Source: Chiloscyllium plagiosum (Eukaryota). From it: a stretch of 64,000 bases of DNA. The position numbers were made by a program, and so were the translations under genes. Positions 5,965 to 58,920 of this stretch are shown piece after piece. Under the pieces are notes generated by a model, which searched no databases, had not been told where the DNA came from, and saw nothing but the letters and a program-made list of their open reading frames with translations. The DNA lies in NCBI RefSeq assembly GCF_004010195.1, contig NC_057719.1, positions 14,320,364 through 14,384,363 of the forward strand, given 5' to 3'. How positions within the stretch are numbered: position 1 is the first letter of the stretch; every line of letters starts with the position of its first letter.

Positions 5965-6172
5965 TTCTAGATTAGAGTGGTGCTAGAAAAGCACAGCAGT
6001 TCAGGCAGCATCCGAGGAGCAGGAAAATTGACGTTTCGGGCAAAAGCCCTTCATCAGGAATATTCCTGCTCGATTTTCCTGCCCCTCGGATGCTGCCTGA
6101 ACTGCTGTGCTTTTCCAGCCCCACTCTAATCTAGAATCTGGTTTCCAGCATCTGCAGTCCTTGTTTTTACCT
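5965..6172. mobile_element. Fold-back Penelope-type terminal-repeat insertion (family A) with 15-bp TSD
   Basis: Inverted arms; flanking direct repeat acattcaaagtaaaa at 5950-5964 and 6173-6187. Confidence 0.85.
6026..6061 (-). ncRNA. Minimal hammerhead ribozyme motif (family A)
   Basis: Minus strand attc-CTGATGA-a-gggc-tttt-gccc-GAAA-cg-TC-aatt; core intact, stem I weak. Confidence 0.65.
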
Positions 6173-7364
6173 ACATTCAAAGTAAAAGACAATAGTAGGA
6201 CAAATAAATCTAGAGCTCCCTGAGTGCAAAAGAAGATAGAAATGAAATAAAATAGAAATGAAAGAAGATAAAGTGCACTTATGATAGCTTTCAGGTAGAA
6301 AATACAATAGAAAACCAAGAAAAATATAAAAGTTTCAGAAGGAAGGAGAGAAAGCAGACTGGAGAAACAAAGATGGATTCTGAGGAAAGCCTAGTAACCA
6401 AAAGAAAGGGGAATCCCAGTGCCTTTTGAAGAGTAAGGATGATTAGGGAAGGGAATGAAAGTGGAGGCATTGCAGAGTCTTTACATGAACAATTAGTATT
6501 TACTTTTACCAAAGGGAGTCAACCCATGGGTACAAGGGGTAAAAAGTCTTGTCATTGCAAGGGCTCAACTAAGGAGGAAGTGCTGGATAAAATGATGCTA
6601 CTTAAAAATCAACAAGGCACTGGGAACAGCTGAGTGTGAACGTTTCCTGTATATTTAATGAACTTATCAAATGTAAGCTGTCACTTCTTAAGCTGTCCTT
6701 TAGATGTGACACTCCAAATCAAACATTCTGATCCATAAGTAAGAATTCTTGATTATGCACTGTTGTTAAACTCACCCGTTGCTATTTTCCTTTCAATCTG
6801 GCCAAATTAAACATTTTAGAATGCACATTATGATATTGAAGATGAGCACCTCACTGAAATTCCAAGTCACCTTTACATAATTGATATTTTGGTGTGAATT
6901 AACTTCCTCACACTTAGCAGGAATGACAATTTAGGATGTTACTTTCCTGTTTTTTTTGTTCTTAATGTGATCACCAAACTATCTCACGTTAAGCTTAGTA
7001 TAAGGCATACAACACATTAAAAAAAGCTTCCTCTACTCTGTCCAAATCTAGAGATTGTTGATTGTGAAATATTTTGTTTTTAAGGCAAGTTATCTTCCTC
7101 CCTCTGGGTGAGACGAGCAATTTCAATACTGTCCATTTTCCAACTCTGCTGAAAGCTGCTTTCTGTCTGCACTTTAGCAAAATTGAACTGAATTTAATGC
7201 AGTCCATTAGGGAATAGTCACAGAAACAAAACTGAGGGAGGGGGATCGGGGTGCTCCAAATAATATTTTGCTGGAGGGAGAAATAATGCTCACAGCCCCA
7301 CTGTGCCCAAAAGCTTCCATAATCTTTGACTATGCTGTTCAACACCATGTGTTCATGTCTAAGC

Positions 7365-7780
7365 ATACCCAGGAGTGGCACACCTTTGAAAGAGGGGTGG
7401 GCAGTCAGGACGTATGACCCCTTTATGGACCATTGACTGGACGTATTAATGGCTGCTTAAGTCAGTTCTTCGATCAGACCTATAAGGAGTTGCTCCTACT
7501 TGCCTGTGTCCAAAGATCAGGGGTTTGGACATTCCACGAGTTCAAGTTCAAGAGAATTATTCAAAAGATGGGTGCAATCCACTGTGACCAATGTAAATTT
7601 GTGGTCCCTGCATTCTACGGTGCTACAGAAAGTGCCGATGGCCTGAGAGTCCTGAACTGTAGCCTCTGGTTGTACAGGATGGTCACATGCAACAGCCTCC
7701 ACTCCAGGTCTCTAATGGAAAGAGGGTGGACTCCTTCTTAGAGAGCCCCCCACTAGGCAGCAAAAGAGAGTGTCAAGGTG
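7365..7780 (-). mobile_element. Tx1/L1-clade retrotransposon ORF2 C-terminal relic
   Basis: Frameshifted minus-strand GVHPLSIRDLEWRLLH...DSQAIGTFC...LIFGH, like the zf-RVT/Cys region of Tx1 elements. Confidence 0.6.
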
Positions 7781-8514
7781 TGTCCGGGTGGAAGGTTAAA
7801 GTAAAGAAGTGGAGGATTTGCAACAAAAGCCTGTGCTGGAAACACCCTCTGCGCCACCTGGAAAGACAGCGAGGGAATCACCCCGAAGCAGCTCAGGGTT
7901 TGGAGGGCAGTTTGAAACCCCCTGAACGATTATGAAATTCTGTTTGAGCTGAAGTACACTTAGAGGGATCCCACTTCTTGTCTGCAGTTCTTCAAGATCG
8001 TTAGTGCTGTCAGGGCGAGTGGGTTTCCTCCAGGTGTTCCAGTTCCCTCCCTCAGTCTGAAGATATACAGGTTAGGTGGATTGGCTGTGCTAATTTGCCC
8101 CATAGTGGCCAGGGTTGCTCAGCCTAGGTGGATTAGCCAATGGTAACAGTGGGATAACGGGGATAGGGTATGAGGACTGGGTCTGAGTAGGATGCCCTTT
8201 GGACACTTGGTGCAGATTGATGGGTGACATGGCCACCTTTTGCACTGCAGAGATTCCATGATATGCAAGGTTAAACGTGCACTGAATGGAAACTTCCCTT
8301 ACCATCTCTTAAAGTTGGGCAGTAATTGGATAAGGCTTTGCATATTAAATGCCCACTTGAGGGTCTCAACTGGGCCATGAATGGGCATTTTAGTTCATAA
8401 TGGGAGTGGGAATATGAAGACCAACAATGGCATGGTACCCTCATTTACAGGTTCATTTGCCATTTTCAGCAGTCAACCAATAATATTGAACCCTTATTGG
8501 AAAGGTACTGTTAC

Positions 8515-8980
8515 CTAGAAAAGATTTACAAGTATTTATCAGGATTGGAGGATTTGAGTTATAGAGGAAGGCTAAATAGAGTGGGGCTGTTTTCCCTGAC
8601 GTGTCGGAGGCTGAGGGTTGACCTTAAGAAGTTTACAATATTATGAGGGGCATGAATAGGGTAAACAGATATGGTCCTTTACCAAGGGTATGGGAGTCCA
8701 AAACTTGAGGGCATAGGTTTAAGCTGAGAGGGGAAAGATATAAAATTGACCTAAGGATCAACTTTTTCATGCAGAGAGTGGTGCTGGTATAAAACAAAAT
8801 GCCAGAGTGGGTGGAGGAGGCTGGGACAACACCAACATTTAAGAGGCATCTGGATGGATATACGAATAGGAAAGGTTTAGAGGGATATGGGCCAAATGCT
8901 GGCAAAAGGGACTAGCTTAATGTAGAATGTCTGGACAAGTTGGACTGAAGGGTCTGTTTCTGTGCTGTACATCTCTATGA
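8515..8980 (+). mobile_element. CR1 LINE 3' fragment
   Basis: ORF2 end plus gaagggtctgtttctgtgctgtacatctctatga tail. Confidence 0.85.
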
Positions 8981-9714
8981 ATGTAATATGACCTTAAGGA
9001 TGTAATTATAAATAGGAAGGGATCTTGAAAGTTTCAACAAAGAATAATGAGTTGCCAAAGAGAAAAAAAATTAGATCTGATCTGCATCAACTTCAAACAT
9101 TGCGCCTTTCTTCATATAATCAACTGCATTGTTTTCTTTCCAGAAAATGAAATGTTGGACCGAGAGCTAGCCACTGCAGACACCACAGCGCCATTTCTCA
9201 ACAGGGGCTTCCTTCAACCTGCTCTCTAACTGGTGACCTCATCTTTTTGTACTTTTTATTGTTTTTCTCTTTTTGACAAGCGTTCCTGACGAGACTGCCT
9301 TTTGTCTCATTAAAAATGTTTTCTGATTCCAAGCATGCTGTGACAGAGCTACAGTGGACATCAACGGCAAACTTTACCCTTTCCATGTGACCGTCTCAGT
9401 ACTTTAACCCAAAATAGGTTTCATATCCATCAAGAGCTGCTATTTTTTCAGACCCATTATCTTACTTTCAGTCAGGTATAACCTGCCTTAGAAGCAGAAT
9501 GTAGCTTTAATTCAGAACCATAATCGCTGATATACCTATGTGATATTATCAATTCCCATCCTTGCGACATTCAGAGATGGTTAATTACAAATTTGCTAAA
9601 GTTAATTGCTTTCCTATAAACAGAAAGCATTGAAAGTCTTCATTATAGCAACCATAACCATTAGACATAAGAAGACTTCATCCTGTCAGCCGGTATTGAA
9701 CTCAGACCTAGGTA

Positions 9715-12070
9715 TAGAGTCATAAGAGTCATACAGCATGGAGACAGATCCTTTGGCCCAAACGGGTCCATGCTGACCAAAATGTCCATCCACGCTAACC
9801 CCATTTCCCTGTATTTGGCCCATATCCTTCTAAACCATTTCTATCAATGTATTTGTCCAAATGTCTTTTAAGTGTTGTCAATGTACCTGCCTCAACCACT
9901 TCCGCTGGCAGCTCATTCCATATGTATACCATCCTGTGTAAAAAGGTTGCCCCTCAGGCTCCCATTTATTCTTTCCCCTCTCACCTTAAACTGATGCTCT
10001 CTAGTCTGCAATTCCCCAACCCTGGGGAAAAAAAACCTGTACATGCTTCTCATGACCTTATACACTTTTATAAGATTCCCCTCATTCTCTTATGCTGTGA
10101 AGAAAAAAAGTCCTAGCTTGTCCAACTTCTCCCTATAACTCAGACCTTTGAGTCCTGGTAACATTCTTATAAATTTCTTCTGCACGTTTTCTAGTTTTAT
10201 AACATCCTTCTTATAGTAAGGTGACCAAAACTTAACACAATATTCCAAGTGCGGCCTCAGCAACATTCTGTACAACTACAACATAACTTCCCAACTTCTA
10301 AACTCAGTTTTCTGACTGATGAAGGTGAGTCTGCCTTCTTCACTGCCCTGTCTACCTGTGAATCCACTTTCAGAGAACCATGCACCTGAACTCCAAGGTC
10401 CCTCTGTTCCACTATATTCCTTAAGGTCCTACCATTCACCATGGAACTCCTACCTTGATTTGATGTTCCAAAATGCAAAACCTCATACTTCTTTATATTA
10501 AACTTCATTTGCCATTTCTCGGCCCACTTCCCCAGCTGATCAAGGTCCTGCTGCAATTTCTGATAATCTTCCTCATTGTCCATGATACTGCCTATTTTAA
10601 TGTACATTCTCATCCATATCATTGATATAGATAACAAACAGCAATGGGTCGCACCGACCCCTGAGGGACACCATTAATCACAGGCCTCCAGTCCTACGAG
10701 TATCCTTCCACTATTACCCTCTGCTTCCTACCATCGAGTCAATTATGGATTCAATTTGCCAGCTCCCCCAGATTCCAGAGCAGCCTATCAAGTGGAACCT
10801 TATCAAAGGCCTCACTGAAATCCATATAGACTACGTCTACAACCCACTTCATCAAACTTCCTGTTCACTTCATCAAAGAACTGTAACAAATTTGTGAGAC
10901 ATGATCTCCCACGCACAAAGCCATGCTGACTACTCCTAATCAAATCCTACCTTTCCAAATGCATGTATATCTTATCCCTCAGAATTTTCTCAAGTACCTT
11001 ACTTACCATAAATGTTAACCTTACTGGTCTATAATTCCCAGGATTCTCTTTGCAGCCCTTCTTGAACTAAGGCACAACATTTACTACCCGCCAATCCTCC
11101 GGGACCTCACCTGTGGCTAACGATGATGCAAAGTTATCAGCCAGGGCCCCCACAATTTCTTCTCTAGATTCTTGCAGGGTTCCTAGATATATCTGGTCAG
11201 GACAAGGAGATTTATCCACCTTCATACATTCTAATACGGTAAATGTTCATTGAGGACCTCACCCACCTCCTGCGATTCTACACATACATGTTCATTTTAC
11301 ACCTTGATGAATCCTATTCTCTCTCTAGTTGCTCTATTACCTTTATTCTACTTAAGCAACCTATTTGGATTCACCCTAATTTTCTCAGCCAAGGCTATCT
11401 CATGCCCCCTTTTCACTTTCCTGATTTCCTTCTTAATAAACTCCTATATACCCAATATAACTCCAGTGATTGCCTAGATCCCAGCTGCCTGTACCTGAGC
11501 TATACCTCATTTTTTCTGCTCAGGGCTTCAATTTCTCTTGTCATCCAGGGTTCCCTATTTCTGCCAACCTTGCCCTCCATCCTCACAGGAACATATAGAC
11601 CATGAACTCTAATTATCTCACTTTTGAAAGGCCTCCCACATGCCAGAAGTCCCTTTGCCTGCAAACAAACTTTTCCAATCAACCCCTACAAGCCCCTGTC
11701 TAATTCCATTAAAATCCACCTTGCCCCAGTTTGCAACTTGAACATGTCTACCAGTTTCGTCCCTGTCCATAACTATTTTAAAATTAATAGAAGTATGGTC
11801 ACTGGTCCCAAAGTGCTCCCCACTGTTAATTTAGTCACCTGTCCAATTTCCCAAGCTTAGGTCGAGTTTTGCCCTATCCCGAGTAGAACCCTCTATATAC
11901 TGTTCGAGAAAACTTCCCTGAACATACTTAACAAATTCCATCCCATCTAAGCCTTTAATGCTCTGGCACTCCCAGTCTATGTTAGGAAAATTAAAATCCC
12001 CTACTATGACAACCCTAGTGCTCCTGCCAGTCTCCCCAATCTCCCTGCATATTTGTTCCTCTAATTCTGG
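9715..12070 (-). mobile_element. About 2.3-kb decayed CR1 LINE (endonuclease through RT and 3' tail)
   Basis: Minus ORFs LQQDLDQLGKWAEKWQMKFN, LRPHLEYCVKFWSPYYKKD, REPWMTREIE. Confidence 0.9.
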
Positions 12071-12120
12071 AGGTATTTGGAGGAAATTTCTTGAAGTCTG
12101 CCTTTGAGATCTTGTCAGGT

Positions 12121-12376
12121 GATTTTTAGTTTGAGAAGATTTGTAGCTCAGGTTGAGGTTTGGGTTGTAAGTTTGCTCACTGAGCTGGAAGGTTTGTTTT
12201 CAGATGTTTCATCACCACGCTAGGTAACATCATCAGTGAGGCTCCCGTGAAGGTGGAATAAATACAGCGGGACAGAACACCAGCGCTTCACCGGAGGCTC
12301 ACTGATGATGTTACCGAGCATGGTGACGAAACGTCTGAAAACAAACCTTCCAGCTCAGTGAGCAAACCTACAACCT
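12121..12376. mobile_element. Fold-back Penelope-type insertion (family B) with 13-bp TSD and two inverted hammerhead motifs
   Basis: About 90-bp inverted arms (12162-12252 / 12286-12375); TSD gatcttgtcaggt at 12108-12120 and 12377-12389. Confidence 0.85.
12299..12338 (+). ncRNA. Minimal hammerhead ribozyme motif (family B), predicted cleavage after GUC at 12335
   Basis: tca-CTGATGA-t-gttacc-gagcat-ggtgac-GAAA-cg-TC-tga: 3-bp stem I, 6-bp stem II, palindromic ACGU. Confidence 0.75.
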
Positions 12377-13019
12377 GATCTTGTCAGGTATTTGTCCTTC
12401 AAATTGCTTGAAATAGAGTTCAAGGTTGACAGTGTCTCAGTGCTAAAACTGGCAGGTTGAATACTGTTCAAGCAAGTGGGACTTATAAAGGCGTGTTCAG
12501 GTTGAGTGCTTCGGGGAGCTAAGTGGAAGATTAGAAAAAGGTGTTTGGTTGCTTTTGCCGAAGCCTTTTCAGCTTCTAGGAATTGATGATCACTCTGTAA
12601 CAGGATAAGCTAGTTAATTGATAGGCATCTGGGAAGTGATTGAAATTCATTCTATTCCTGTGGCTCAAAGGAATAAATTTTGAGCAAAAGGTGCGTGGGT
12701 GAGGATAAAAGATGTCAATTGAAAAGCCTACCCACAGTGAGACCAGTGACGTCATGAACCACAACAATGACACGGGTGCCGGGAAAGTAACTAATGAATG
12801 AGTAGAGTTGGTGAGTATTGCTAATATTTAAAATAATTATGTTTAGATCACCAGTCTTTATTTCTTTATTAAAAATAGCTATTTAAATATAAGATCAATC
12901 CTGATCTTGTTTAGAAAAAACATTGCAATAACGTGTAAAAAGTGGGGTATTGTTCACATGTGAATAACAGTGATACCAATGTAAGTAAGTAATAAATTAA
13001 ATAAAATGCAATGGCGGTA

Positions 13020-13360
13020 GCAAGATGGGTGATGTGTTGTTGCTGCAGCATGCGGGAACAATTGGATACCAAGGTGACCCCGAATGAGCACACATTTAGA
13101 AAGTATTTGTAACTCAAGATAATCTGAATCAGAGCCAAAGAGCTGGAGCTTAATTTGTAGACAGTGTGCCACATCATGGAGGAGTAAAGTTAATGGACAC
13201 CTTTCTCCCAGAGATAGTCACATCCCTCAGATTATATCATTCAAATTTGGGCTTTGAGCAGGAACAGGAGGCTGTGACTGCAGCTGAGGCAGGTATGTGG
13301 ACCCAGGAGGAGATTTGGCCCCCACATTTGTCCAATAGTTACGAGGTTCTTACAAGCTAT
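13020..13360 (+). mobile_element. Probable CR1 ORF1 relic
   Basis: Decayed Cys-rich start (CCCCSM), then EIVT...LSNSYEVL resembling CR1 ORF1. Confidence 0.4.
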
Positions 13361-13380
13361 AGGAGTGTGGCAGTGCTGGG

Positions 13381-15789: not shown

Positions 15790-16008
15790 ACTGATCTACC
15801 TAACACATTCCCAGATACCTTCTCCCCAGCCCCATTCTCCTCCCATTTATCTCTCAGCCCCCTTGGCCCACAAACTCATTCCTGATGAAGGGTTTATGCT
15901 CAAAACGTCGATTCTCCTGCTCCTTGGATGCTGCCTGTCTTGCTGTGCTTTTCCAGCACCACATTCTTGACTCTGATCTCAAGTCTCTGCAGTCCTCACT
16001 TTCTCCCG
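15790..16008 (+). mobile_element. Penelope-type 3' terminal repeat (family A) with decayed hammerhead
   Basis: attcctgatgaagggtttatgctcaaaacgtcgatt followed by gatgctgcctg...gcagtcctcactttctcc. Confidence 0.75.
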
Positions 16009-27348: not shown

Positions 27349-27359
27349 CTGTTTCCTGC

Positions 27360-27422
27360 CACCATTGTTCCTTCTTCAGTTCTGTAGAATGGTTCTTCAG
27401 AACTGAAGAAGGGACAATGGTG
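27360..27422. repeat. 63-nt hairpin (25-bp arms, 1 mismatch, 13-nt loop)
   Basis: caccattgttccttcttcagttctg versus cagaactgaagaagggacaatggtg. Confidence 0.9.
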
Positions 27423-28149
27423 ATATGAAATATTCTGCGTCCACCTGAAAGGAAGTTGTTCCCAAAGAAGGGTCATTGGGCCTGAAACATTGACTCTGCT
27501 ATCTCTCCACAGATGCTGCCAGGCCTGCTGAGTTTCTCCAGCTAATTTGTTTTTGTACCTCATGTACATTGTGTATATTACTAGCCAACCTGATAGAAAA
27601 GTTTATTAATTCTTAAAAATGTTTATTTTTCAGATGTCATCCCTGCTGTAATGTCAATCTTACAATATATTCAGTTGTAGTTCAAATTCATTGAAGAGGG
27701 CATTAAGCCAATGAGTGCAGACCAGGTATAAATTACTAGCTCTCTACTAACTGCATACTGCAAGCTCTTTGTTACTTGCAATGTCAGCTGATTTAGTCCA
27801 GTTATAATTAGAATATCAGTGCAAAACAATTATGGGCACAGCTTCAATTAAAGTATAATCCAGAGCTAGGGCCCCATCTCATTCCAGAATAAAATATAAA
27901 GTTTCATTTGGGAGGAAATGTTATTCTGTTACATGGAGTCATTTCATAACTCTAGATTTACACTGCATTAGCCTGGTTTGAAGTCAATGAAAAATAACAT
28001 AAAACCCCACTGCAAATGTAGCTGTAACGATGGCAAAAGAAGAATGTGCCTTGAAAAGAACTTTGAAAATACTTAGTAATAAAAATGATACAAATATCCC
28101 TCTAAAATGTTTCACCACCGGGTTTACTTCTCTAAACTAAAATTATACA

Positions 28150-28303
28150 CAATGTGGAGGTGTTGGACGGGGGTGTATAAAATTAGAAGTCGCATAACAC
28201 CAGGTTATAGTCCAACAGGTTTATTTGAGATCATAAGCTTTCGGAGCACTGCTCCTTCGTCAGATGAAAGCTTGTGATTTCACATAAACCTGTTGTGTGA
28301 CTC
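28150..28303. mobile_element. Fold-back Penelope-type insertion (family C) with 13-bp TSD
   Basis: TSD ctaaaattataca at 28137-28149 and 28304-28316; arms 28213-28242 / 28266-28295. Confidence 0.8.
28231..28267 (-). ncRNA. Minimal hammerhead ribozyme motif (family C)
   Basis: tcat-CTGACGA-a-ggagc-agt-gctcc-GAAA-gc-TT-atga: 4-bp stem I, 5-bp stem II, palindromic AAGCUU. Confidence 0.72.
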
Positions 28304-28939
28304 CTAAAATTATACAGACCATAGAATTGTACTGAAAATATTGTACAGAAGTAGAGTATTTGAGTGAAGAATAGCTGGACACTCACCATCTTCTATCAGT
28401 GAATTCATGGAGGAGAGGCTCTAGCAATGACATTGGCACCACATTTAAAATGCTGTGAAGTTTGTATTTACTAATGACAACCTCTCATCATGTGCAGACT
28501 GCATACTGATAATTTCCCATCCATATCTACTGGTGGTGCAGTGCTGGTATCCTCACTTCTAGAATAGGAGGCATGGGAAGTCTCACCGACTTTGAGCGGT
28601 TGATTAGGAAAATATCTTCATCTATAAAAAAGACCTATCGCATGCCTGCCTGGAAAGCAGAATGCAGCTACATTGGCAGCAGGAAGACCCTGGGAGATCT
28701 GAAGGTTTAACAATGCCCCCCTCCCCTCAAGGCTACAAGGACAGTGTGTGATGTCCACTCCCCTAGGGATGGAAGGAAGTTTCTGCCCTGCCTGACCCAA
28801 CTTACTAATATTTAGATTCTTCAGATCCCAAGCATCAGGTAGAAACTGAATGGCAACAACTCACAACATAAAAGTCACTCAGTGACTCCAGCTCACTGGC
28901 TGCCCATCTACACCTCCATCTTAGGCAGCAGCATCCAAC

Positions 28940-31411: not shown

Positions 31412-32545
31412 AGGAGAAAGTGAGGACTGCAGATGCTGGAGATCAGAGCTGAAAATGTATTGCTGGAAAAGCGCAGCAGGTCAGGCAGCATCCAAGGAGC
31501 AGGAGAATTGACGTTTCGGGCATGAGCCCTTCCCACCCCTTCCTAGACTTTCCATTTCTATCTCGGGCGACCGAATCAACACGGACATTTACTATAAACC
31601 GACCGACTCCCATAGCTACCTAGACTACATCTCCTCCCACCTTGCCCCCTGTAAAAACACCATCCCATATTCCCAATTCCTTCGTCTCCGCCGCATCTGC
31701 TCCCAGGAGGACCAGTTCCAATACCGTACAACCCAGATGGCCTCCTTCTTCAAAGACCGCAATTTCCCCCCAGACGTGGTCGACAATGCCCTCCACCACA
31801 TCTCCTCCACTTCCCGCTCCTCCGCCCTTGAGCCCTGCCCCTCCAANNNNNNNNNNNNNNNNNNNNNNNNNNNNNNNNNNNNNNNNNNNNNNNNNNNNNN
31901 NNNNNNNNNNNNNNNNNNNNNNNNNNNNNNNNNNNNNNNNNNNNNNNNNNNNNNNNNNNNNNNNNNNNNNNNNNNNNNNNNNNNNNNNNNNNNNNNNNNN
32001 NNNNNNNNNNNNNNNNNNNNNNNNNNNNNNNNNNNNNNNNNNNNNNNNNNNNNNNNNNNNNNNNNNNNNNNNNNNNNNNNNNNNNNNNNNNNNNNNNNNN
32101 NNNNNNNNNNNNNNNNNNNNNNNNNNNNNNNNNNNNNNNNNNNNNNNNNNNNNNNNNNNNNNNNNNNNNNNNNNNNNNNNNNNNNNNNNNNNNNNNNNNN
32201 NNNNNNNNNNNNNNNNNNNNNNNNNNNNNNNNNNNNNNNNNNNNNNNNNNNNNNNNNNNNNNNNNNNNNNNNNNNNNNNNNNNNNNNNNNNNNNNNGAGT
32301 GGGGGTGGGGGCGGAGAGGTCAGGAAGAAGATTGCAGGTTAGGAAGGCGGTGCTGATTTCGAGGGGGGGGAGGGGAAATGATTTCCAACGCCCCTCCCCC
32401 AAGTCCCTCCTCCCTACCTTTTATCTTAGCCTGCTGGACACACTTTCCTCATTCCTGAAGAAGGGCTCATGCCCAAAACGTCGATTCTCCTGCTCCTTGG
32501 ATGCTGCCTGACCTGCTGCACTTTTCCAGCAACACATTTTCAGCT
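31412..32545 (+). mobile_element. Penelope-like retroelement insertion (RT C-terminal fragment with inverted family A termini) spanning the gap; 15-bp TSD
   Basis: PFLDFSISISGDRINTDIYYKPTDSHSYLDY...IPYSQFLRLRRICS at 31537-31846; TSD ctggtagactctttg at 31397-31411 and 32546-32560. Confidence 0.88.
31847..32296. other. Assembly gap (450 N)
   Basis: Run of N. Confidence 1.
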
Positions 32546-34784: not shown

Positions 34785-36330
34785 TGGAATATACTGAATG
34801 TAACTACTTTATTCAAAAACTGATGGAGACGGAAAGTTACAGGCCAGTTGGTTGAACATCTGTCATAGGGAAAATATCAGAAGCTATTACTAAAGAGATT
34901 ACAGCAGAGTACTCCGATAAGTTAAAGGTAAGCAGGCACAGCTAACGCAGTTTGTGAAAGGGAAATCATGTTTGACTAATCTATTGGAGTTTTTTGAGGA
35001 GGTAACATGTAGTAGATAAAGGGGATGTGGTTGACATATTGTACTTGGATTCCCAGAAGGCACTTTATAATGTGTTTTGTCAAAGGCCGTTGTGGTGGAT
35101 AAAATCAGAAGTCACATGACACCAGGTTATCATAGAATCCCTAGAGTGTGGAAACAGGCCATTTGGCCCAACAAGTCTACACTGAACCTCCAAAGGCTAA
35201 CCCATCCAGATCCAGTCCCCTGACTAATGCACCTAACTTACATATCCCTGAATACTATGGGCAATTTAGCATGGCAAATTCACCTGACCTGCACATCTTT
35301 GGATTGTGGGAAGAAACCAGAGCACCTGAAGGAAACCCACACAGACACAAAGAGAATGTGCAAACTCCACACAGGCAGACAGTCACCTGAGGCTGGAATT
35401 GAACCCAGGTCCCTGGTGTTGTGAGGCAGCAGTGCTAACCACTGAGCCAGTGTGCCACCCGACACAGATTTATTTAAAATCACAAGCTATCGGAGCACTG
35501 TTCCTTCGTCAGGTGACTTGTAACTTTGTTCACTCCAGTCCAACACCAGTGCCTCCACATCATGGAAAATAAAAGGTCATGGTGGAGGGGGTGACACATT
35601 GGCATGGATAGAAGATTGGCTGGCTAACAGGAAACAGAGAGCAGGAATAAATGGGTCTTCTTCAGTGAGACAACATAATGAGTGATGTGTGATAGGGATT
35701 GGTACTGGGACCTCAAAAGTTTATAATCAGAAGTGCAGTAAGAGATAGATGTTGTGGCCTCATAAATTGCTCATGTAACAAAGGTAGCTAGGAAAGACTG
35801 CATCTAGAGTACTGTGCACAATATTAGTCACCTTCTTAAAAGAAGGATGTAAATACATTTGAGACAGTTCACAAAACATTTGCTTAACTATTACCTGGAA
35901 TAGGGGGTTATCTTTTGAAGCAAAGTTGAACAGGCTGGTTCATATTGGCTGGAGTTTTGAAGAGTGAAAGCTGAGTTGATTGAAACATATCAGCTCTGAA
36001 CAATCTGGACAGGATAGCTACAGAAAGGACATTTCCACTGATGGAAGAACCTGGAACTAAGGGGTCATTATTTAAAAATCAAGGGTCACACCTTTAAAAC
36101 AGAGATGAGTTTTTTTTTCTCGGAGAGGGTTGAGAGGCTTTGGAACTCCTCTTCTTGATGGATGTAGCGTCCTTGAATAATTTTAAAACAAAGGTAGATA
36201 GATTCTTGCTTAATCAAGAAAGTGAAAGGTTATCATGAGTAGGCAGGTGTGTGGATTAGTCATGACCTTATTGAATGGCAGAGCAGGCTAGAGGGGCTGA
36301 ATGGCCTCCCTCTGCTCCTAACTTGCATGT
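34785..36330 (+). mobile_element. Decayed CR1 LINE with nested family C repeat and V-SINE
   Basis: VKGKSCLTNLLEFFEEVT remnant and 3' tail; nested inserts at about 35097-35562. Confidence 0.82.
35131..35460 (-). mobile_element. HE1-type V-SINE
   Basis: Full head, core and tail. Confidence 0.85.
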
Positions 36331-37568: not shown

Positions 37569-37748
37569 GTCGAACAGTGTGGCGCTGGAAAAGCACAACA
37601 GGTCAGGCAGCATCTGAAAAGCAGGAGAATTGATGTTACGGGCCTAAATCCTTCATCATGCTCCTTGCACGCTTGCTGAGCTGCTGTGCTTTTCCAGCGC
37701 CACACTTTTCAATTCTGATCACCAGCATTTGCAGTCCTCACTTTCTGC
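37569..37748. mobile_element. Fold-back family A insertion with 14-bp TSD
   Basis: TSD atacatccagtgga at 37555-37568 and 37749-37762; inverted gctggaaaagcac / gtgcttttccagc arms. Confidence 0.8.
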
Positions 37749-38929
37749 ATACATCCAGTGGATGCAGAGGAGATCCAGAAATGCAGAAGATTGCTGCCAT
37801 GGTGACATATCAGCTGTTCACCAACTCCAATTAGGCTCCGCTCCAAACAACAGTGCAGCACACTAATCCGTGAGAGCATCTCTAGACAGACACATTCTCA
37901 GAAGCACAGCTGCTTGAACAGTGAGGACTCTGTATGTCACCGAGACTTGGATCATAGACTCTCTGTTGAAGATAACCACTCCTACATGAAAGAGGCTGCA
38001 TTGCCCTGCTTCCTCTTCTCCAGTATCTCCATTCTGAGACAGACTCTCCTGTTCACTCTGACATTGCTGACCACATGTTGTTTATGCCTGTATTATCCTT
38101 CTGCTGTCTTCTTTCTCTTCTCCAATGGGAATTTTGAAGCCTAAATGAGTCCTATGGCAGGTGGCCTCTCTCAGTGTAGAAGGTCTTTTATACAAATGGC
38201 ACATCCCCTCATTTGCCCCCATTTATTTCCACAAATGACAACTGATTCTTGGTCAATTGTCAGTTATAAATCTGCGATAGATTTTTTTTTGTTAAGAATA
38301 AATTCAGGGAAATAGATTTAAGGGATATGGGCATAAAGCAGGTATCTGAAGTTAGACCACAGATCTAATTTGATGAAGGGGCAGTGCTCTGAAAGCTTGT
38401 GATTTCAATTACACTGTTGGACTATAACCTAGTGTCTTGTGACATATCATTTCAGGCAGACTTTGAATTCATTCTTAATTTATGAAACGTTAAATAATTT
38501 CTGTCTGCTGTCAGCACCAGATTCTAGGGTTTCATTGTTGCTTATTGCTTGTTGTCTTTGCATCTTTAATAATTTATAAGTGTGACATGCAGATGAAATG
38601 GCTGAGAGATTTTCTTTTACTCAATGAACATATTAAACATAGCTCTTGATTGCAAAGATGTGGCCAGAGTTAGTGGATTGCTTTTGTGAGAGTTGAGTTA
38701 TAGAGGTAAGGGAATGCTGGAAAAAGACTTAGATGGTTGGAGATGGTTACGTATGGGATGTGCTATGTTGGTTAGGATTGCACTACTCAATCAGATATAA
38801 CTTCGGTTATTATAGTAATTCAAGAAAATTTTCGGCTGATGCTCTCATGAGTATTGCCATCCTTATCACAAACTACCTTATCATCAGAACTCTCATCTAC
38901 CACAAGATGTAAAGGAATGTCACAAATGT

Positions 38930-39290: not shown

Positions 39291-39469
39291 CTGTAAATAG
39301 AAAACAAAATGACTAAAAACTAATTTTGAATGATTTATTACTCTGGACAAAAATACCCTTTGTTATTTGTAGCAGAATGTTAATTGCAATTTTTTTTCTT
39401 CTAAATACCTTCTCTCTACCACATATATATTTGAACAACATGGATCTTGGGTATCTTGAGCCAACTTGT

Positions 39470-40025
39470 GGAATGTTTCAGAGAAGATCTCTGGGACACA
39501 CGCACTCAACAATCCCATCACCCTGTGGCAGAATACTTTAACTCCTCCCACTCCTGGGACTCCTCCACTGCCAAACCCTAACCATCTGATGTCTGGAGGA
39601 AGAATGCCTCATCTTCTGGCTTGGAACCCTCCAACCACTCAGGATCAATGTGGATTTCACCAGTTTCCTCATTTCCCCTCCTTCCACCTTATTCCAGATC
39701 CAACGCTTCAACTCAACACTGCCCTCTTGAACTGTCCTACCTATCCATCTTCCTTCCCATCTATCCGCTCCACTCTTCTCTCCAAACTATCACTATCACC
39801 CTCACCTCCATCTAACTATCGTATTCCCAGCTACCTTCCTCCCAGCCCCACCCCCTCCCATTTATCTCTCAGTCCCCTTGGGCCACAAGCCTCATTCCTG
39901 ATGAAGGGCTTATGCTCGAAATGTCGATTCTCCGGCTCCTCGGATGCTGCCTGACCTGCTGTGCTTTCTCAGCAACACACTCTTCGACTCTGATCTCCAG
40001 TATCTGCAGTCCTTGCTTTCTCCTA
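39470..40025 (+). mobile_element. Penelope-like element 3' part with hammerhead motif at 39894-39929
   Basis: GIY-YIG C-terminal remnant, then attc-CTGATGA-a-gggc-ttat-gctc-GAAA-tg-TC-gatt. Confidence 0.8.
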
Positions 40026-45439: not shown

Positions 45440-46088
45440 AGGAGAAAGTGAGGACTGCAGATGCTGGAGATTAGAGCCAAACAATGTGGTGCTGGAAAAG
45501 CACAGTTGGTCAGGCAGCATCTGAGGAGCAGAAGAGTCGATGTTTCAGAGAACATCTCCGGGACACGTGCACCAATCAACCCACCATCCTATGGCCGAAC
45601 ACTTCAACTCCCCCTCCCACTCTGCCAATGACATGCAAGTCACCAGACGCCTGAAGGAAGAATGCCTTATCTTCCACCTTTGGGACCCTCCAACCACACG
45701 GAATCAATGTTGAATTTACCAGTTTCCTACTTCCCTTCCCCCCCACCTTATCCCAGATCCAACCCTCCAACTCGGCACCACCCTGGTGACCTGTCCTACC
45801 TGTCCATCTTCCTTTCCACCTATCCACTCCACCCTCCCCTCCCACCTATCATCACCACACCCAACCTTCATCCACCTATCGTATTCCCAGCCACCTTACC
45901 CCAGCCCCACCCCCACCCCATCCCCACTTATCTCTCTACCCCTTTGGGCCACAAGCCTCATTCCCGATGAAGGGCTTATGTCCGAAACGTTCGACTCTCC
46001 TGCTCCTCAGATGCTGCCTGATCTGCTGTGCTTTTCCAGCACATCCTTTGATTTTGATCTCCAGCATCTGCAGTCCTCACTTTTTCCC
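45440..46088 (+). mobile_element. Penelope-like 3' part with inverted family A terminus
   Basis: Minus terminal repeat 45440-45546, then FREHL GIY-YIG remnant and plus terminal repeat. Confidence 0.8.
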
Positions 46089-46324: not shown

Positions 46325-47085
46325 TGAGTCAAAAAGTGTGGTGCTGGAAAAGCACAGCCGGACAGACAGCATCCAAGGAGCAGGAGAATCAACCTTTCAA
46401 GCATAAGCTCTTCATCAGGAACGTGGTGGGGTTGGGGGGTACAGTGGGTGGTTAGGTTTTGGTGACGGAGGAGGCCCAGGTCCGGCATGTCCTTGGCAGA
46501 GTGGAAGGGGAGTTAAAGTGTTCAGCTACAGGGTGGTGGGATTGGTCAGTGCAGGTGTTCTCTGAAAAGATCCGCAAGTTGGTGTTCTGTCTCCACAATG
46601 TAGAGGAGACCACATCAGGTGCAACGGATGCAGTAGATGATATGTGTGGAAGTACAGGTAAATCTCTGCTGGATGTGGAAGGGTCCTTTGGGGCCTTGGA
46701 CGGAGGTGAGGGCAGAGGTGTGGGCACAGGCTTTGCACTTCTTGTGGTGGCAGGGGAAGGTGCCAGGAGTGACGGGTGCGTTGGTGGGGAGGGCGGGGAC
46801 CTGACAAGGGAGTCATGGAGAGAATGGTCTTTACGGATGGTGGATAGGGGTGGGGTGGGAAATATATTTCTGGTGTTAGGGTCTGTTTGCAGGTGGTGGA
46901 AATGGCGGTGGATGATGTGATTTATCCGAAGGTTGGTCGGGTGGAAAGTGAGGACCGAGGGGTGTTCTGCCCTTGTTGCTTTGAGCGGGATGGGGTTTAA
47001 GGGCAGAGGTGTGGGAATTGGAGGAGATATGTTGGAGGGCATCAACCACGTGGGAGGGGCAATTGTGGTTTTAGAAGGAGGCCAA
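46325..47085 (-). mobile_element. Penelope-like element, GIY-YIG endonuclease region and terminus
   Basis: Minus remnants VLTFHPTNLRINHIIHRHFHHLQTDP, THIIYCIRCT...LLYIVETE...FRE, HPVAEHFNSP. Confidence 0.85.
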
Positions 47086-51025: not shown

Positions 51026-51148
51026 AGATGCAGTGGCTCCTTGATGTATCCATCATATACCCAGGTTTACACGTACATCTGTAGCTACCTCTGGTGTTCA
51101 AACAGTTAGCATTTTGACACATTCCTGACATCAGGCATTCGTTGATAT
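51026..51148 (-). CDS. LTBP2: LTBP2 exon, calcium-binding EGF domain DINECLMSGMCQNANCLNTRGSYRCTCKPGYMMDTSRSHCI
   Basis: cbEGF consensus with 6 Cys; AG/GTAAGT boundaries; 123 nt, phase 1-1. Confidence 0.96.
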
Positions 51149-51439: not shown

Positions 51440-51965
51440 CTCCCATCCTCAGACAATCAGCGATTAAATATAAGGTTTTGCAATGAAAAAAATGGGTTAA
51501 GGAATAAACAATACGTGGAGGTAGATTCCAAAGGGAGACAGGAACAGTTAGACAGACAAAGGAGTGGAAAGTGATCAGCCTGGGAGAACAAACAGCTACT
51601 AATGGGGGCAATTAGTGGCTGACAATGGGCTGTGTATAGTAGCAGACCATGTGATAACAAGGCCAAGTGTGCGGGGGTTGGGGTAAGGAGAAAATTGTTG
51701 AACTCGATATTGAGTTCCAGAAGGCTATGGAGTTCTCAAGGGGAAAAATGAAGTGCTGCCCTTCCAGCTTGTTCTGAGCTTCACTTGAACACTGCAGCAA
51801 GCCTGAGACAGAGATATTGGCCAGGGAACAAGGTGGTGTGTTGAAGTGGCAGGCAATTGGATGCTCAGGACCTTTTTTGCGGGCAGAATGGAGGTGTTCT
51901 GCGAACTGCACACCCAGTCTACACTTCATTTCCCTTCAGTGTAGAGAAACCACATTGTGAGCAAT
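51440..51965 (-). mobile_element. Penelope-like GIY-YIG fragment (different subfamily)
   Basis: KCRLGVQFAEHLHSARKKGPEHPIACHFNTPP...KLEGQHFIF. Confidence 0.8.
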
Positions 51966-52069
51966 GAAGGCTGAGTGAGTGTCTTACTCGTTTACCAGTA
52001 ACTTTTCAGTTCCTTTCTACTAAAGTCTTTTAAAATAGGATAAGTGCACTTGAGTCTCAAACAAACTGG

Positions 52070-52656
52070 GCAAAAGTGAAGACTGCAGATGCTGGAAACC
52101 AGAGTCTAGATTAGAGTGGTGCTGGAAAAGCACTACAGGTCAGGCAGCATCTGAGGAGCAGGAAAATTGACGTTTCGGGCAAAAACGCTTTAGGGAACAT
52201 CTCTGGGACACCCGCACCAATCAACCCCACCACCCCACGGCCCAACATTTCAACTCGCCCTCCCACTCTGCCGAGGACATGCAAGTGCTGGGACTCCTCC
52301 ACCGCCACTCCCTCACCACCTGGAGGAAGAACGCCTCATCTTCTGCCTCAGAACACTTCAACTCCAGGGCATCAATGTGGACATCACCAGTTTCCTCATT
52401 TCTCCTCCCCCCACCTTACCCCAGTTCCAACCTTCCAGGTCAGCACCATCCTCATGACCTGTCCTACCTGCCAATCTTCCTTCCTATCTATCCTCTCCAC
52501 CCTCCTCTTTGACCTATCACCTTTATCCCCACCTCCATCCACCAATTGTACTCTTTGCTACCTTCTCCCGAGCCCCAACCCCCTCCCATTTATCTCTCCA
52601 CCCCAGAGGCTCCCTCCCTTCATTCCTGATGAAGGGCTTTTGCCCAAAACGTCGAT
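52070..52656 (+). mobile_element. Penelope-like 3' part with inverted family A terminus and 15-bp TSD
   Basis: TSD tctcaaacaaactgg at 52055-52069 and 52657-52671; ends just after the hammerhead motif at 52622-52657. Confidence 0.85.
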
Positions 52657-52964
52657 TCTCAAACAAACTGGCCAACACTTCTATTTTACAGCCAGACTTG
52701 AATTTGTTTGATCAGATCTCACCAGGCTACGCAAATGCCATGGATAGTCAAGCAGTTTAGCTGAACATGAAATATTTAACCCCGATGCTTTGATCCACCT
52801 TGCCTGAATCACAACTGACTTTTGTTGCTCATCAGCAATCAACCACACTGACAGAGAGGTTAGTCATCAATATTGTCTGATACTTTCAAATCAAGGTGTG
52901 TGGTGAAGCAGGAAATAAAGGGAAATAAAAAATTAAATAAAAAGGAAAACATGCTGTCTGATCT

Positions 52965-55745: not shown

Positions 55746-55749
55746 TAAG

Positions 55750-56465
55750 AAGTTTCAGAGCTGATAAAGAGAGATTGGATAGACTGAAGTTGTTTTTTTC
55801 TTAAAGCAAGAGGAGCCTATAATGATGAGCTGTATAAAATTATGAGTGGTTTCGGTAGGGTAGACAGGAAGAAACTTTTGCCCTTGATGGAGTGATCAGT
55901 GACCGGGGGCACAGGTTTAAGGTAAGGAGCAGGAGCTTTAGAGGGAACTTGAGGAAAATTCTTTTCACCCTAAGGGTAGTGAGAATCTGGAGCTCATTGT
56001 CTACCAGGGTGGTACAGGCAGAAAGCTTCATAGTATTTAATAAGCCTTCAGATATGCATCTGCAAGGTCAAGGCATACAAGGGCGAGAGGGTCTGTTTCC
56101 ATGTTAGCCCTTGGCCTTGTATGGAGAAAGTGAGGACTGCAGATGCTGGAGATCAGAATCAAGAGTGTGGTGCTGGAAAAGCACAGCTGGTCAGGCAACA
56201 TCTGAAGAACTGGAGAGTCGATGTATTGGGCAAGAGCCCTTCATCATGAAATGACTCATGCCTGAAACATTGATTCTCCTGCTCCTCGGATGCTGCTTGA
56301 CCAGCTGTGCTTTTCCAGCACCACATTCTTGATTCTGATCTCCAGCATTTGCAGTCCTCACTTTCTCCATACAAGGCTATGGGCTAAGTGCTGGGAAATA
56401 GGATTGGAATAGTTTGGTGACTGGAGTGAATGTGATGGTCCTGTGCTGTAGACCTGTATGACTCT
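55750..56465 (+). mobile_element. CR1 3' fragment interrupted by a fold-back family A insertion
   Basis: RGHRFKVRSRSFRGNLRK remnant; tail resumes after 56368. Confidence 0.75.
56124..56367. mobile_element. Fold-back family A insertion
   Basis: About 100-bp inverted arms gagaaagtgaggactgcagatgctgg / ccagcatttgcagtcctcactttctc. Confidence 0.85.
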
Positions 56466-57869
56466 TTGTGATACAGTGGGCAGAACTAATAGTAAAATCA
56501 TAACCTATAAATTAACTGGAAAGCTAACCATTCACAATTTCCATTTTCAGTAAACAGGTTAAGTCTCAATGTTGAAAAGGACAGTACTGAATATGTGGTT
56601 AAAATTCCATTTTGAGATTCTACAGTGTGTAATCTTTACTTAATGGATTTAAAGCCCATTCTCTCAGGGCTGATCACAGAGTGTGCACAGTGGAGAGGAA
56701 TAGACAGCCTTTTCCTCTCCCTTGCCACCTTATTCTGAAGTTTATATTCAGGATTCAATTACATAGTTATTGATACCTCACAACGATATTTAAAATGCAG
56801 ACATGAAGCCTGATTTCCTCTTTATTTCAATGTCCCTAAGTGAATTCCTGAGGCATTCATATTAATGGGTCTTCAGTCTGGATTCATTCATTAAACACTC
56901 TGCAAGCTTTATAACGCTATAATTATTAACCAACAAGTCATTGAATTTACTTATGCAAGTATAAGCATTCCAAAGGGACAGCTGCCTCCATGATAGTCTG
57001 GTCCACTCAATCACTTCTAATACCCTTGTTACATAAAAAGTTTGACAAAATTAAAGCTTGTTGAATAAAAATGACAGTAGCAGCATGGTTGTGAAGATGG
57101 CCAAGTGACAGGAGGTGGAGGTCAGAGATGAGTTGTTGCTTTTCAGACTAGCTTAATGTACACAGTGAAGTTTCCTTAGTAATCTGGATCAGGATCACCG
57201 CTTTTCTTGATCTGTGTTGATTATGGAGACTTGGAAGTGCAGGGCACAATTCCAAAACTTAGAGTGCACAAAACTTGGAAGTGTTGCAAATTGTGTGGAG
57301 GTAAGTAATAGATAACAATAGCGCTCATCAGCAGTTTCTACATTTTGTACAACTTCTAGAAACAGAGCTGAATTCTGATAAAGTTCACTCTGTATTAATT
57401 CTGGGGACTTTCACAGAGGGTTTCTGTCTCTGAGCCCCAGAGACATTTCTCACATTGTTATCTGAAAGCAACCTATCAATAATGTACCATGTCTCTGTGG
57501 TACCTCTCTTGTCCTAGATACACTCTCGCCAGAGGAAGGAGCACTTCCCACTGCGGGATATGCTGGGATTCCCAGCACCAGTGCTATCTTTAAAGCCCAG
57601 CTTTGTATTAAGCCAAATTCTGCCAGCCAGGAGTTGACATTTACTTAGAGTGTAGCGAGAGAAGAGAGAAAAATAAATGCCATTTGAGGCACAGAAGTGA
57701 CCCAGCTGACATCCATTAGAAATGCAAAAGCGCATTCATAAATTTATTGGTGTTTAAGAAACAAACTACATAGGTTACCAGTCCTCAGCCTTACCTATCT
57801 TAGAAACCTGTCTTTTTGAGGGGGCAAGGCAGAAGGGAAGCAAGAGAAGGTAAAGACGATGTAAGCACG

Positions 57870-58920
57870 TTACGGGTATGGTGCCAATCAAGCGGGCTGC
57901 TTCGTCCTGCACGGTGTCAAGCTTGAGTGTTGTCGGGGCTATACCCATCCAGGCAAGTGGGCAGTATTCCATCACACTCCTGAATTGTGCCTTGTAGATA
58001 GTGGAGAAAGTGAGGTCTGCAGATGCTGGAGATCAGAGCTGAAAAGCAACAGGTCAGGCAGCATCCAGGGAACAGGAGAATCGAGGTTTCGGGCATAAGC
58101 CCTTCTTCAGCCTGAAGAAGGGCTTATGCCCGAAACCTCGATTCTCCTGTTCCCTGGATGCTGCCTGACCTGTTGCGCTTTTCCAGCACACATTTTCAGC
58201 CTTGTAGATAGTGGCCAGTTTTTAGTGAGTCAGGTGGTGAGTATTCCTAGCCTCTGACATGCCCTTGTAGCCACTATGTTTATGTAGTTAGTCCAGTTGC
58301 ATTTCTGGTAACCTCCAGGATGCTAATGGTGGGGGATTCAGTGACAGTAACACCATTGAATATCAAGGGGCGGTCATGTCTTTTATTGGTGATGGTCATA
58401 GTCTGGTGTTTGTGTGATGCAAATATTACTTATCACTTATCAGCCCAAGCTTGGATATCATCCAGGTCTTGCTACATCTTGATACTTCTGTATCTGAGGA
58501 GTCACAAATGGTGTTGAACAATGTGTAATCATTTGTGAACATCCCCACTTCTGACTTTATGATGGATGAAGCAGCCAAAGATGATTGGGCCTCGGACCCA
58601 ACACTAAGGAACTCCTGTCGAGATGTCCAGAAGCTGAGAGGACTGACTTTCACCAACCACAACCATCTTCCTATGTGCCAGGTATTATTTTAAACATTGG
58701 GAGAGCTAACCCCCCTGACATTTCAGCTCCTTTGAACCAAGACTGTAATGGGGTCAGGAGCTGAGTGGCCCTGGCAGAACCCAAACTGGGTGTCACTGAG
58801 CAGGTTATTGCTGAGCAGGTAATAGCACTGTTGATAACATCTTCCATCACTTTACGGATGATCGAGATTAGGCTAATGGGGCGGGAATTGACTGGATTGG
58901 ACTTGTCGTGCTTTTTTATA
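57870..58920 (-). mobile_element. L2/CR1-group LINE RT fragment (a family distinct from HER1)
   Basis: VMEYCPLAWMGIAPTTLKLDTVQDEAARLIG and VGMFTNDYTLF remnants. Confidence 0.7.
58005..58198. mobile_element. Fold-back family A insertion containing a perfect 131-bp palindrome; 16-bp TSD
   Basis: Arms 58046-58110 and 58112-58176 are exact reverse complements; TSD gccttgtagatagtgg at 57989-58004 and 58199-58214. Confidence 0.92.

What the first reader, a model, noticed from the sequence alone, without database searches (positions are those of the whole stretch)
5965..58198. Small fold-back retroelements built around hammerhead ribozyme motifs, in three sequence families
Seen: short insertions consisting mostly of a terminal repeat plus its inverted copy, each flanked by a clean 13-16 bp direct repeat (5965-6172, 12121-12376, 28150-28303, 37569-37748, 58005-58198; longer ones at 31412-32545 and 52070-52656). 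Three unrelated repeat sequences carry the same CUGANGA / stem II / GAAA / palindromic loop / UH architecture. Family A is physically joined to Penelope-type RT and GIY-YIG coding remnants. Established: Penelope-like elements carry minimal hammerheads thought to act as dimers, and often form inverted termini. Inference: the coding-free 150-260 bp fold-backs are either extreme truncation products or a non-autonomous ribozyme-bearing class mobilised by Penelope RT; families B and C are assigned to Penelope only by architecture.
Basis: partly seen in the sequence, partly recalled or inferred. Interest (0 to 1): 0.78.

Follow-up and report, generated by a model that had tools for sequence, protein, structure and literature searches.

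The report
Fold-back stubs of Penelope-like retrotransposons
These small hairpin-shaped insertions with ribozyme motifs are real, but they look like the shortest form of the mirror-image insertion already described for Penelope-like jumping genes, built afresh at each landing site in a shark-type genome, not a new kind of mobile element.

Summary
Observation confirmed. All 7 insertions have exact 13-16 bp target-site duplications (2 of 1474 random positions reach 13), and a minimal-hammerhead descriptor hits once in each family versus 0 times in 200 shuffles. Family A joins Penelope-type RT and GIY-YIG remnants; B and C link to Penelope-like (PLE) ORFs only through relatives.

The anatomy is the published PLE insertion: an inverted terminal repeat with a 33-42 nt tail on one arm only. 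All 10 inversion junctions in the window differ. Contigs from three runs, laid on family B, show under 2% of peak arm depth at its centre and no joint carried by more than 5 contigs, so the hairpin is probably not copied as a unit.

11 of 12 short family-A arms begin upstream of the cut site, so templates were uncleaved. Symmetric fold-backs bury their own ribozyme, and 6 of 10 A cores are broken. Three similar TSD-flanked fold-backs occur in unrelated metagenome DNA.

Still open: whether the ~125-nt single-arm module is itself transcribed and remobilised (about 20%). This scan reported the same class on other DNA of this genome.

The parts
5965..6172 (.). Family A fold-back: left arm antisense and tail-less, core on - strand 6057-6030; right arm sense and tailed, core deleted; TSD 5950-5964 / 6173-6187
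12121..12376 (.). Family B fold-back: left arm antisense with ~42 nt tail (core 12236-12203, one change in the palindrome); 33 nt centre of upstream sequence; right arm tail-less with a fully canonical motif at 12302-12335; TSD 12108-12120 / 12377-12389. The module reads as a PLE-type N-terminal peptide with one TGA
28150..28303 (.). Family C fold-back: left arm antisense and tailed, core 28263-28235 (-); short tail-less right arm starting near GAAA, with an internal deletion; TSD 28137-28149 / 28304-28316
31412..32545 (+). Family A: inverted tailed terminal repeat (31412-31532), then 5'-truncated copy with RT C-terminal remnant 31536-31844, N gap 31847-32296, tail-less terminal repeat; TSD 15 bp
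37569..37748 (.). Family A fold-back, old (arms 78% alike, no intact core); left arm tail-less, right arm tailed; TSD 14 bp
52070..52656 (+). Family A: inverted tailed terminal repeat, then GIY-YIG-region remnant, 3' UTR and hammerhead (G12 to A); the right end stops 3-7 nt past the cut site; TSD 15 bp
58005..58198 (.). Family A fold-back with a near-blunt centre at C3; inner 65 nt 100% complementary; both arms share a change that breaks the ACGU palindrome; left arm tailed; TSD 16 bp
56104..56387 (.).
45441..46087 (+). Family A: inverted tailed repeat plus GIY-YIG-region remnant plus tailed repeat; no TSD found
46329..47085 (-). Family A 5'-truncated copy: RT C-terminus and GIY-YIG remnants, tail-less repeat; no TSD found
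39465..40024 (+). Family A 5'-truncated copy from the GIY-YIG region to the tailed end
15790..16006 (+). Family A copy: 3' UTR, terminal repeat, tail
2773..2894 (+). Family A single-arm stub starting inside the hammerhead, tailed, 8 bp direct repeat
35094..35560 (.). Family C fold-back with a ~330 bp SINE-type repeat inside its left arm (35131-35460); 6-7 nt shared at the junction near 35518
38371..38443 (+). Family C single-arm stub starting at U4, tail-less

Best explanation
These are dead-on-arrival insertions of endonuclease-positive Penelope-like elements from three families. The PLE RT/GIY-YIG protein cuts both strands with a 13-16 nt stagger (inferred from the TSDs). cDNA starts at one of two fixed internal RNA sites 33-42 nt apart, giving tail-less and tailed ends (two ends shown; their origin taken from PAc biochemistry). 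When cDNA starts in the transcript's 5' terminal repeat, it runs only 90-130 nt on uncleaved RNA and stops at or within the hammerhead, probably near the RNA start (clustering shown, cause inferred). A second cDNA is laid in the opposite orientation and the two are joined bluntly or by short homology. Two short arms give a fold-back; a short and a long arm give the classical inverted repeat plus truncated copy. For making the mirror arm I favour independent priming from each DNA end (about 0.55) over snap-back copying of the first cDNA (about 0.35). The hammerhead is inherited from the parent's terminal repeat; in the fold-backs it is buried or decaying.
For: 7 of 7 TSDs. Two 3' ends at about +90 and +125 in family A, and exactly one tailed arm in all 7 TSD-flanked elements (in 52070 the other end stops early at +35). 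Family B genome-wide shows loose-end piles at 12130, 12166 and 12372 (442, 341 and 290 contigs in X1, flank agreement 0.41-0.46). All 10 junctions differ. B-centre bin depth is 2,662 against 135,000-592,000 in left-arm bins; the best joint has 5 contigs of 21,179 laid. 11 of 12 short A arms begin between -5 and +27, upstream of the cut after +28. Core-open folding costs 21-29 kcal/mol in 12121 and 58005. 6 of 10 A cores are broken and CpG columns differ in 29 of 108 cells. A continuum from stubs to RT-bearing copies exists. L051, L078 and L096 are TSD-flanked fold-backs in unrelated DNA. The layout matches PMC3846280, PMC8557442 and PMC11167929.
Against: Short-read contigs break at palindromes; even this locus's own contig does not span the B element, only 15 of 181 joints and 24 of 54,834 pieces were shown, and the tool warns that a hole proves nothing. 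No full-length parent of B or C was seen. RNA reads on family B run about 80-85% in the element's sense and on into varied flanks, so dispersed copies are transcribed and could serve as templates. 56104 and 45441 have two tailed arms, and 56104 has inverted flank DNA, which fits snap-back rather than twin priming. The 5965 right arm may begin at the cut site. Asymmetric fold-backs (5965, 28150) open their core for only 5-6 kcal/mol.
Confidence: 0.72

Rival explanations
1. The ~125-nt single-arm module (hammerhead, both RT start sites, perhaps an internal promoter) is a SINE-like non-autonomous RNA. Solo genomic stubs are transcribed and remobilised in trans by PLE protein, and the mirror arm is made anew at each insertion.
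For: Short arms are 12 of 18 family-A arms. Family-B depth falls from about 420,000 at the core (both arms summed) to about 69,000 at 18 nt upstream of C3. RNA reads are sense-biased and run into varied flanks. The D. virilis Penelope promoter has downstream elements inside the pseudo-LTR (PMC2377424, passages). pLTRs suffice in cis for mobilisation in trans (PMC3846280, passages). Junction diversity does not count against this reading.
Against: The same data follow if full-length transcripts are primed internally near their 5' end, as shown for PAc. Family A grades continuously into ORF-bearing copies. 223 X1 contigs share one upstream continuation of B. No start or end pile-up appeared in the RNA run, which cannot show starts well.
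Confidence: 0.2
2. The fold-back itself is the propagating, ribozyme-processed unit, a palindromic retrozyme.
For: Many fold-backs with clean TSDs. Non-LTR retrozymes derive from PLE pLTRs (10.64898/2026.07.22.740005). Palindromic junctions are under-assembled in the contigs used.
Against: 10 of 10 junctions differ. The two motifs lie on opposite strands, so one transcript carries one ribozyme, not a tandem pair. The core is paired in symmetric cases (unpaired probability 0.00-0.14). Repeated junctions among metagenome loci proved to be one locus each, seen in several assemblies.
Confidence: 0.04
3. They are MITE-like DNA transposons, or assembly artefacts of collapsed repeats.
For: Terminal inverted repeats plus TSD. 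One element has 65 nt of 100% complementarity and another spans an N gap.
Against: Arms are unequal, with a tail on one side. TSD length varies from 13 to 16 bp. The sequence is contiguous with RT and GIY-YIG remnants. Own-arm identity runs from 78 to 95% across six elements. Exact TSDs would not arise from collapse.
Confidence: 0.04

Closest known systems
Insertion units of EN+ Penelope-like elements (Penelope/Poseidon, Neptune): pLTR, adjacent inverted 5'-truncated copy, 30-40 bp tail, TSD (PMC3846280, PMC8557442; passages read)
   Same: Inverted terminal repeat at the 5' side, tail on one end, TSD, RT then GIY-YIG upstream of the repeat, palindromic junctions.
   Different: Here both arms can be only 50-130 nt, so no coding sequence remains; TSDs are 13-16 bp against 8-10 bp in the rotifer examples; density is very high (12 family-A pieces in 64 kb).
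[quoted passage not shown]
   Same: Core, extra base between 9 and 10.1, G10.1-C11.1, palindromic 15.2-16.2 without helix III, short helix I. That paper already reports solo motifs from truncated PLEs and dual motifs 100-700 bp apart on opposite strands.
   Different: No shark family appears in the parts read; TSD-bounded fold-backs and arm ends were not analysed there; activity is untested here.
PAc, Poseidon of Anolis (Frangieh et al. 2024, PMC11167929; parts 1-2 of 4 read)
   Same: Two internal RT start sites delimit the tail; both DNA strands are cut and extended; uncleaved RNA is the main substrate; the ORF starts in the hammerhead, as family B appears to.
   Different: In vitro work on one element; it does not describe fold-back products or clustering of 5' ends.
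Non-LTR retrozymes (PMC7229834, passages; 10.64898/2026.07.22.740005, parts 1-3 of 5)
   Same: Non-coding, 150-450 bp, type I hammerhead, related to PLE pLTRs, found in one chondrichthyan genome.
   Different: Retrozymes are head-to-tail tandem repeats that yield circular RNA; these are head-to-head, with one sense ribozyme per transcript.

Membership tests
EN+ Penelope-like element (family A) | PLE-type RT followed by C-terminal GIY-YIG upstream of the terminal repeat | tested here: met
   The 31530-31844 piece is 81% and 75% identical to shark proteins and about 52% to full-length RVT_1 + GIY-YIG proteins; tblastn places RT-end and GIY-region remnants in order at 31.5k, 39.5k, 45.5k, 46.4-47.1k and 52.1k. 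Remnants only.
EN+ Penelope-like element (family B) | Terminal repeat continuous with a PLE ORF | tested here: inconclusive
   The module peptide hits 9 proteins (E 1e-7 to 6e-4). In P0126 it heads a frame whose later part aligns (E 3.7e-6, pairwise) with a PLE N-terminal region in L080, itself matching P0013 at E 8e-13. No RT is attached in any of the 9. Indirect.
EN+ Penelope-like element (family C) | Terminal repeat continuous with a PLE ORF | tested here: inconclusive
   L097 matches family C at 75% over 75 nt, including 13 exact bases outside the search pattern, and lies about 210 nt behind a GIY-YIG-end-like peptide that scores weakly (59 of 2000 shuffles as high). L044 has a C-like motif (88% over 33 nt, largely the search pattern) inverted against a PLE RT remnant (E 4e-20). 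No parent from this genome was seen.
EN+ Penelope-like element | 30-40 bp tail, usually on one end | tested here: met
   A: ends at about +90 and +125. B: loose-end piles 36 nt apart in three contig runs. One tailed arm in 7 of 7 TSD-flanked elements; two tailed arms in 56104 and 45441.
EN+ Penelope-like element | Inverted 5'-truncated copy at the 5' end, with TSD | tested here: met
EN+ Penelope-like element | Clade placement by RT phylogeny (Neptune versus Poseidon) | not tested
   No reference set was at hand; A as Neptune-like and B as Poseidon-like are recalled resemblances.
Minimal type I hammerhead | Core, G10.1-C11.1, bulge after A9, palindromic 15.2-16.2, short stem I | tested here: met
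   3 strict hits against 0 in 200 shuffles; core identical in A, B and C while stem II and the palindrome (ACGU or AGCU) differ and still pair.
Minimal type I hammerhead | Self-cleavage as a dimer | not testable with these tools
   Cofolding did not give the active dimer as minimum-energy structure; no pile of ends in the RNA run; neither is a test of activity.
Non-LTR retrozyme | Head-to-tail tandem units, each with a hammerhead | tested here: not met
   Paired motifs within an element lie on opposite strands; no tandem direct copies among the family hits.
Non-LTR retrozyme | Abundant circular RNA | not testable with these tools
   Only a poly(A) single-cell run was laid.
Propagating non-autonomous fold-back family | Same junction at many loci with different flanks | tested here: not met
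   10 of 10 window junctions differ; B centre not shared; repeated metagenome junctions are the same locus. Power is limited by window size and contig breakage.

The most novel reading that the evidence does not exclude
The ~125-nt terminal module of several PLE families is a self-sufficient SINE-like unit: transcription starts just upstream of the hammerhead, both RT start sites lie inside it, solo stubs are re-transcribed and remobilised in trans, and the mirror arm is synthesised anew at each insertion. The tens of thousands of stubs would then be a hammerhead-headed non-autonomous class, and their ends a genome-scale record of how PLE RT primes both strands.
Probability: 0.2. Interest if true: 0.6.

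Novelty: new member of a known kind. Interest (0 to 1): 0.3.

Why it matters
How PLEs make their inverted repeats and tails is still called undefined in the papers read (PMC8557442; PMC11167929). Very short TSD-bounded fold-backs keep both cDNA ends, the junction and the target stagger within 150-260 bp, and a genome that may hold tens of thousands per family makes twin priming versus snap-back, and RNA start versus ribozyme cut, countable. The element class, the ribozyme motif and the inverted layout are already published, so the value is as a dataset rather than a new system.

Tried and rejected
Rfam: no hammerhead model hit; the miRNA hits are hairpin artefacts. Pfam on 8 window ORF fragments: nothing. 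Solved structures for the RT piece: none. Family-specific patterns found 0 matches in metagenome, viral and prokaryote collections, so no DNA of this organism with long flanks was obtained. Word-based protein searches for the B peptide and the L097 peptide: nothing. Atlas search of P0126 residues 161-372: all hits under 0.9 and poor structure matches, not used. Empty-site test: no other window copy spans any of the 7 joined flanks, and B is not inside a recognisable LINE frame as I first thought; the lay had zero depth at 12084-12115, so it could not show an empty site. A contig of organism B carries the right junction of the B element, but with only 26 letters on one side, below the 31 needed. 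No RNA holder of 5000-13000 was listed, which is no evidence either way. Core versus flank conservation among A copies: 3 of 118 against 39 of 578 non-CpG cells, p = 0.09; inconclusive and not a valid test on dead copies. The joint 12160-12372 is a tailed sense copy mapping across the two arms, not a fold-back junction. Lunse et al. (PMC5785218) was not held; only its title was seen.
Full report
Setting. The RT fragment at 31530-31844 has shark proteins among its closest hits (Chiloscyllium 81% and 75%, Rhincodon 64%, Stegostoma 62%), so the host is very likely an elasmobranch.

1. The observation. A strict minimal-hammerhead descriptor (core, stem II of 4 or more pairs, palindromic 15.2/16.2, UH) hits at 6057(-), 12302(+) and 28263(-), one per family, against 0 hits in 200 shuffles; relaxed, 8 against 4 in total. 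The core is the same in A, B and C while stem II differs (4, 7 and 5 pairs) and the palindrome is ACGU or AGCU, which is the pattern expected from selection on the parent elements. Self-BLAST adds more copies: 12 family-A pieces, 3 of family C and 1 of family B.

2. Link to Penelope-like elements. For A, tblastn with 13 of the 120 fetched proteins places RT C-terminal and GIY-YIG-region remnants directly upstream of the repeat in five copies; three of the five proteins scanned carry RVT_1 and GIY-YIG. For B, the module reads as a peptide with one TGA, and 61% of X1 depth has C at that base, which opens the frame. A profile of the peptide finds 9 proteins, three from whale shark. In P0126 it heads a frame whose later part aligns with a PLE N-terminal region (E 3.7e-6 to the L080 ORF, which matches P0013 at E 8e-13). 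None of the 9 has an RT domain. An ORF that starts in the hammerhead is the PAc arrangement. For C, L097 matches at 75% over 75 nt including 13 exact bases outside the search pattern; the peptide ending about 210 nt upstream aligns to the GIY-YIG terminal motif only weakly (59 of 2000 shuffles score as high). L044 has a C-like motif inverted against a PLE RT remnant. B and C are therefore probably PLE termini, but no parent from this genome was seen.

3. Anatomy. Numbering C3 as +1, family-A arms end 3' at about +90 or +125, a 33-nt tail. Each of the 7 TSD-flanked elements has exactly one tailed arm; 56104 and 45441 have two. In the lay on family B (12020-12480; 21,179, 16,625 and 16,376 contigs in X1, X5 and X10), loose ends pile at 12130, 12166 and 12372 with heterogeneous flanks, so two fixed 3' ends exist genome-wide. 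Of 18 family-A arms, 12 are short; 11 of these begin between -5 and +27 and one downstream of the cut after +28 (the 5965 right arm is ambiguous and may begin at the cut). Family-B depth, both arms summed, is about 420,000 at the core, about 140,000 at -9, 69,000 at -18 and 20,000 at -27 in X1; part of that fall is an edge effect, because this copy's upstream homology ends at 12266. The templates were therefore mostly uncleaved, as found for PAc in vitro. That the arms stop at the RNA start is my inference; family A has TCATTCC just before C3, which fits the initiator consensus as I recall it. Pausing at stem II or homology-driven joining are alternatives: 31412, 35094 and 45441 show about 5-7 shared bases at the junction by eye, while 5965 and 58005 are near blunt.

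4. Does the fold-back propagate? All 10 inversion junctions in the window differ. At the B centre the X1 bin depth is 2,662 against 135,000-592,000 in left-arm bins (X5 5,046, X10 1,335; each under 2% of that run's peak arm bin); no listed piece spans it, and the best-supported joints have 1-5 contigs per run (15 of 181 shown). Against this test: contigs break at palindromes, this locus's own contig does not span the element, and the tool states that holes prove nothing. Of 116 matches with enough downstream sequence, 13 have an inverted arm nearby. These reduce to 8 loci, because L020/L032/L100 and L034/L072 are the same loci in different assemblies and two loci match on both strands; L051, L078 and L096 have 13-14 bp TSDs. 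The product is thus not peculiar to sharks.

5. Ribozyme state. The two motifs of a fold-back lie on opposite strands, so a read-through transcript has one ribozyme and its antisense. Opening the core costs 26-29 kcal/mol in 12121 and 21 in 58005, but only 5-6 in the asymmetric 5965 and 28150. Six of 10 family-A arms covering the core have a core change, and CpG columns differ in 29 of 108 cells, which is neutral decay. Core versus flank conservation was inconclusive (p = 0.09). In RNA run X21, 448 reads were laid from about 2% of the run; about 85% (left arm) and 80% (right arm) lie in the element's sense if the library is stranded in the usual way, they cross the cut site without a step, and no pile of ends was reported. 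Activity was not tested.

6. Mechanism. Shown: TSDs, two fixed 3' ends, clustered 5' ends, unique junctions, continuity with coding remnants. Taken from PMC11167929: both strands cut and extended, two internal RT starts, cleavage not required. Inferred: two cDNAs, one from each DNA end, joined head to head; short arms come from priming in the transcript's 5' terminal repeat. Snap-back copying is the main rival for the mirror arm; 56104, with two tails and 19 nt of inverted flank, and the shared palindrome change in both arms of 58005 fit it, and PMC3846280 proposes self-priming.

7. Comparison. Inverted pLTR plus tail plus TSD is described in PMC3846280 (passages), PMC8557442 (passages), PMC8969392 (passages) and PMC2377424 (passages). 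Solo and opposite-strand minimal hammerheads from truncated PLEs are in PMC4209133 (parts 1-2 of 4); PMC6765202 reviews dimer cleavage (passages). Retrozymes need tandem units (PMC7229834, passages; 10.64898/2026.07.22.740005, parts 1-3 of 5), which is not met here. Five searches listed no paper on shark pLTR-only fold-backs or on 5' ends clustering at the hammerhead; the library lacks most subscription papers, repeat databases were not available, and I read no supplements, which may bear on that point. Clade names for A and B are recalled, not tested.

8. Verdict. Real, abundant, and a new member of a known kind. Earlier notes of this scan reached the same reading on other pieces of this genome; they are not independent support. 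Interest 0.3. The boldest reading left open is a SINE-like single-arm module (probability 0.2, interest 0.6).

Noticed in passing
window 27352-27545: Another small inverted repeat (arms 27352-27389 and 27393-27430) with hammerhead-like starts, next to a diverged family-A-like stub at 27465-27545; possibly one or two further PLE families, with related traces at 21664 and 37103.
   Followed up: partly
window 56074-56122: The 56104 element has 19 nt of its right flank repeated in inverted form on the left, plus about 21 nt of filler, before the displaced direct repeat; a candidate snap-back or template-switch scar.
   Followed up: partly
window 45545 and 52185: Two independent family-A insertions join the inverted arm to nearly the same point of the GIY-YIG region, where the ORF carries a sequence complementary to the hammerhead's GAAACGT; a possible homology-driven hot spot. 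The 39465 copy starts about 20 nt upstream of it.
   Followed up: partly
window 51660-51932 (-) and 62890-63036 (+): Older PLE coding remnants (GIY-YIG region and post-RT region) without a family A, B or C repeat attached.
   Followed up: no
window 31847-32380: 450-base N gap inside the 31412 element, followed by about 80 nt that look like 3' UTR in inverted orientation; may be an assembly problem.
   Followed up: no
window 52650-52660: The right end of 52070 stops 3-7 nt after the predicted cut site, with 4 bases shared with the TSD; it matches neither usual 3' end.
   Followed up: no
proteins P0123, P0128, P0129, P0130: The family-B peptide is embedded in predicted proteins of whale shark and king cobra, including ones with ornithine carbamoyltransferase and adenosine deaminase matches; probably gene-prediction noise from PLE termini.
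   Followed up: no
L025, L026, L079, L001, L008: Tandem multi-copy PLE arrays with GIY-YIG ends about 300 or 3000 nt before a minimal hammerhead.
   Followed up: no
L122:4001-4029: One match to the generic hammerhead pattern in a viral contig, with a 2-pair stem II and no palindrome; probably chance.
   Followed up: no
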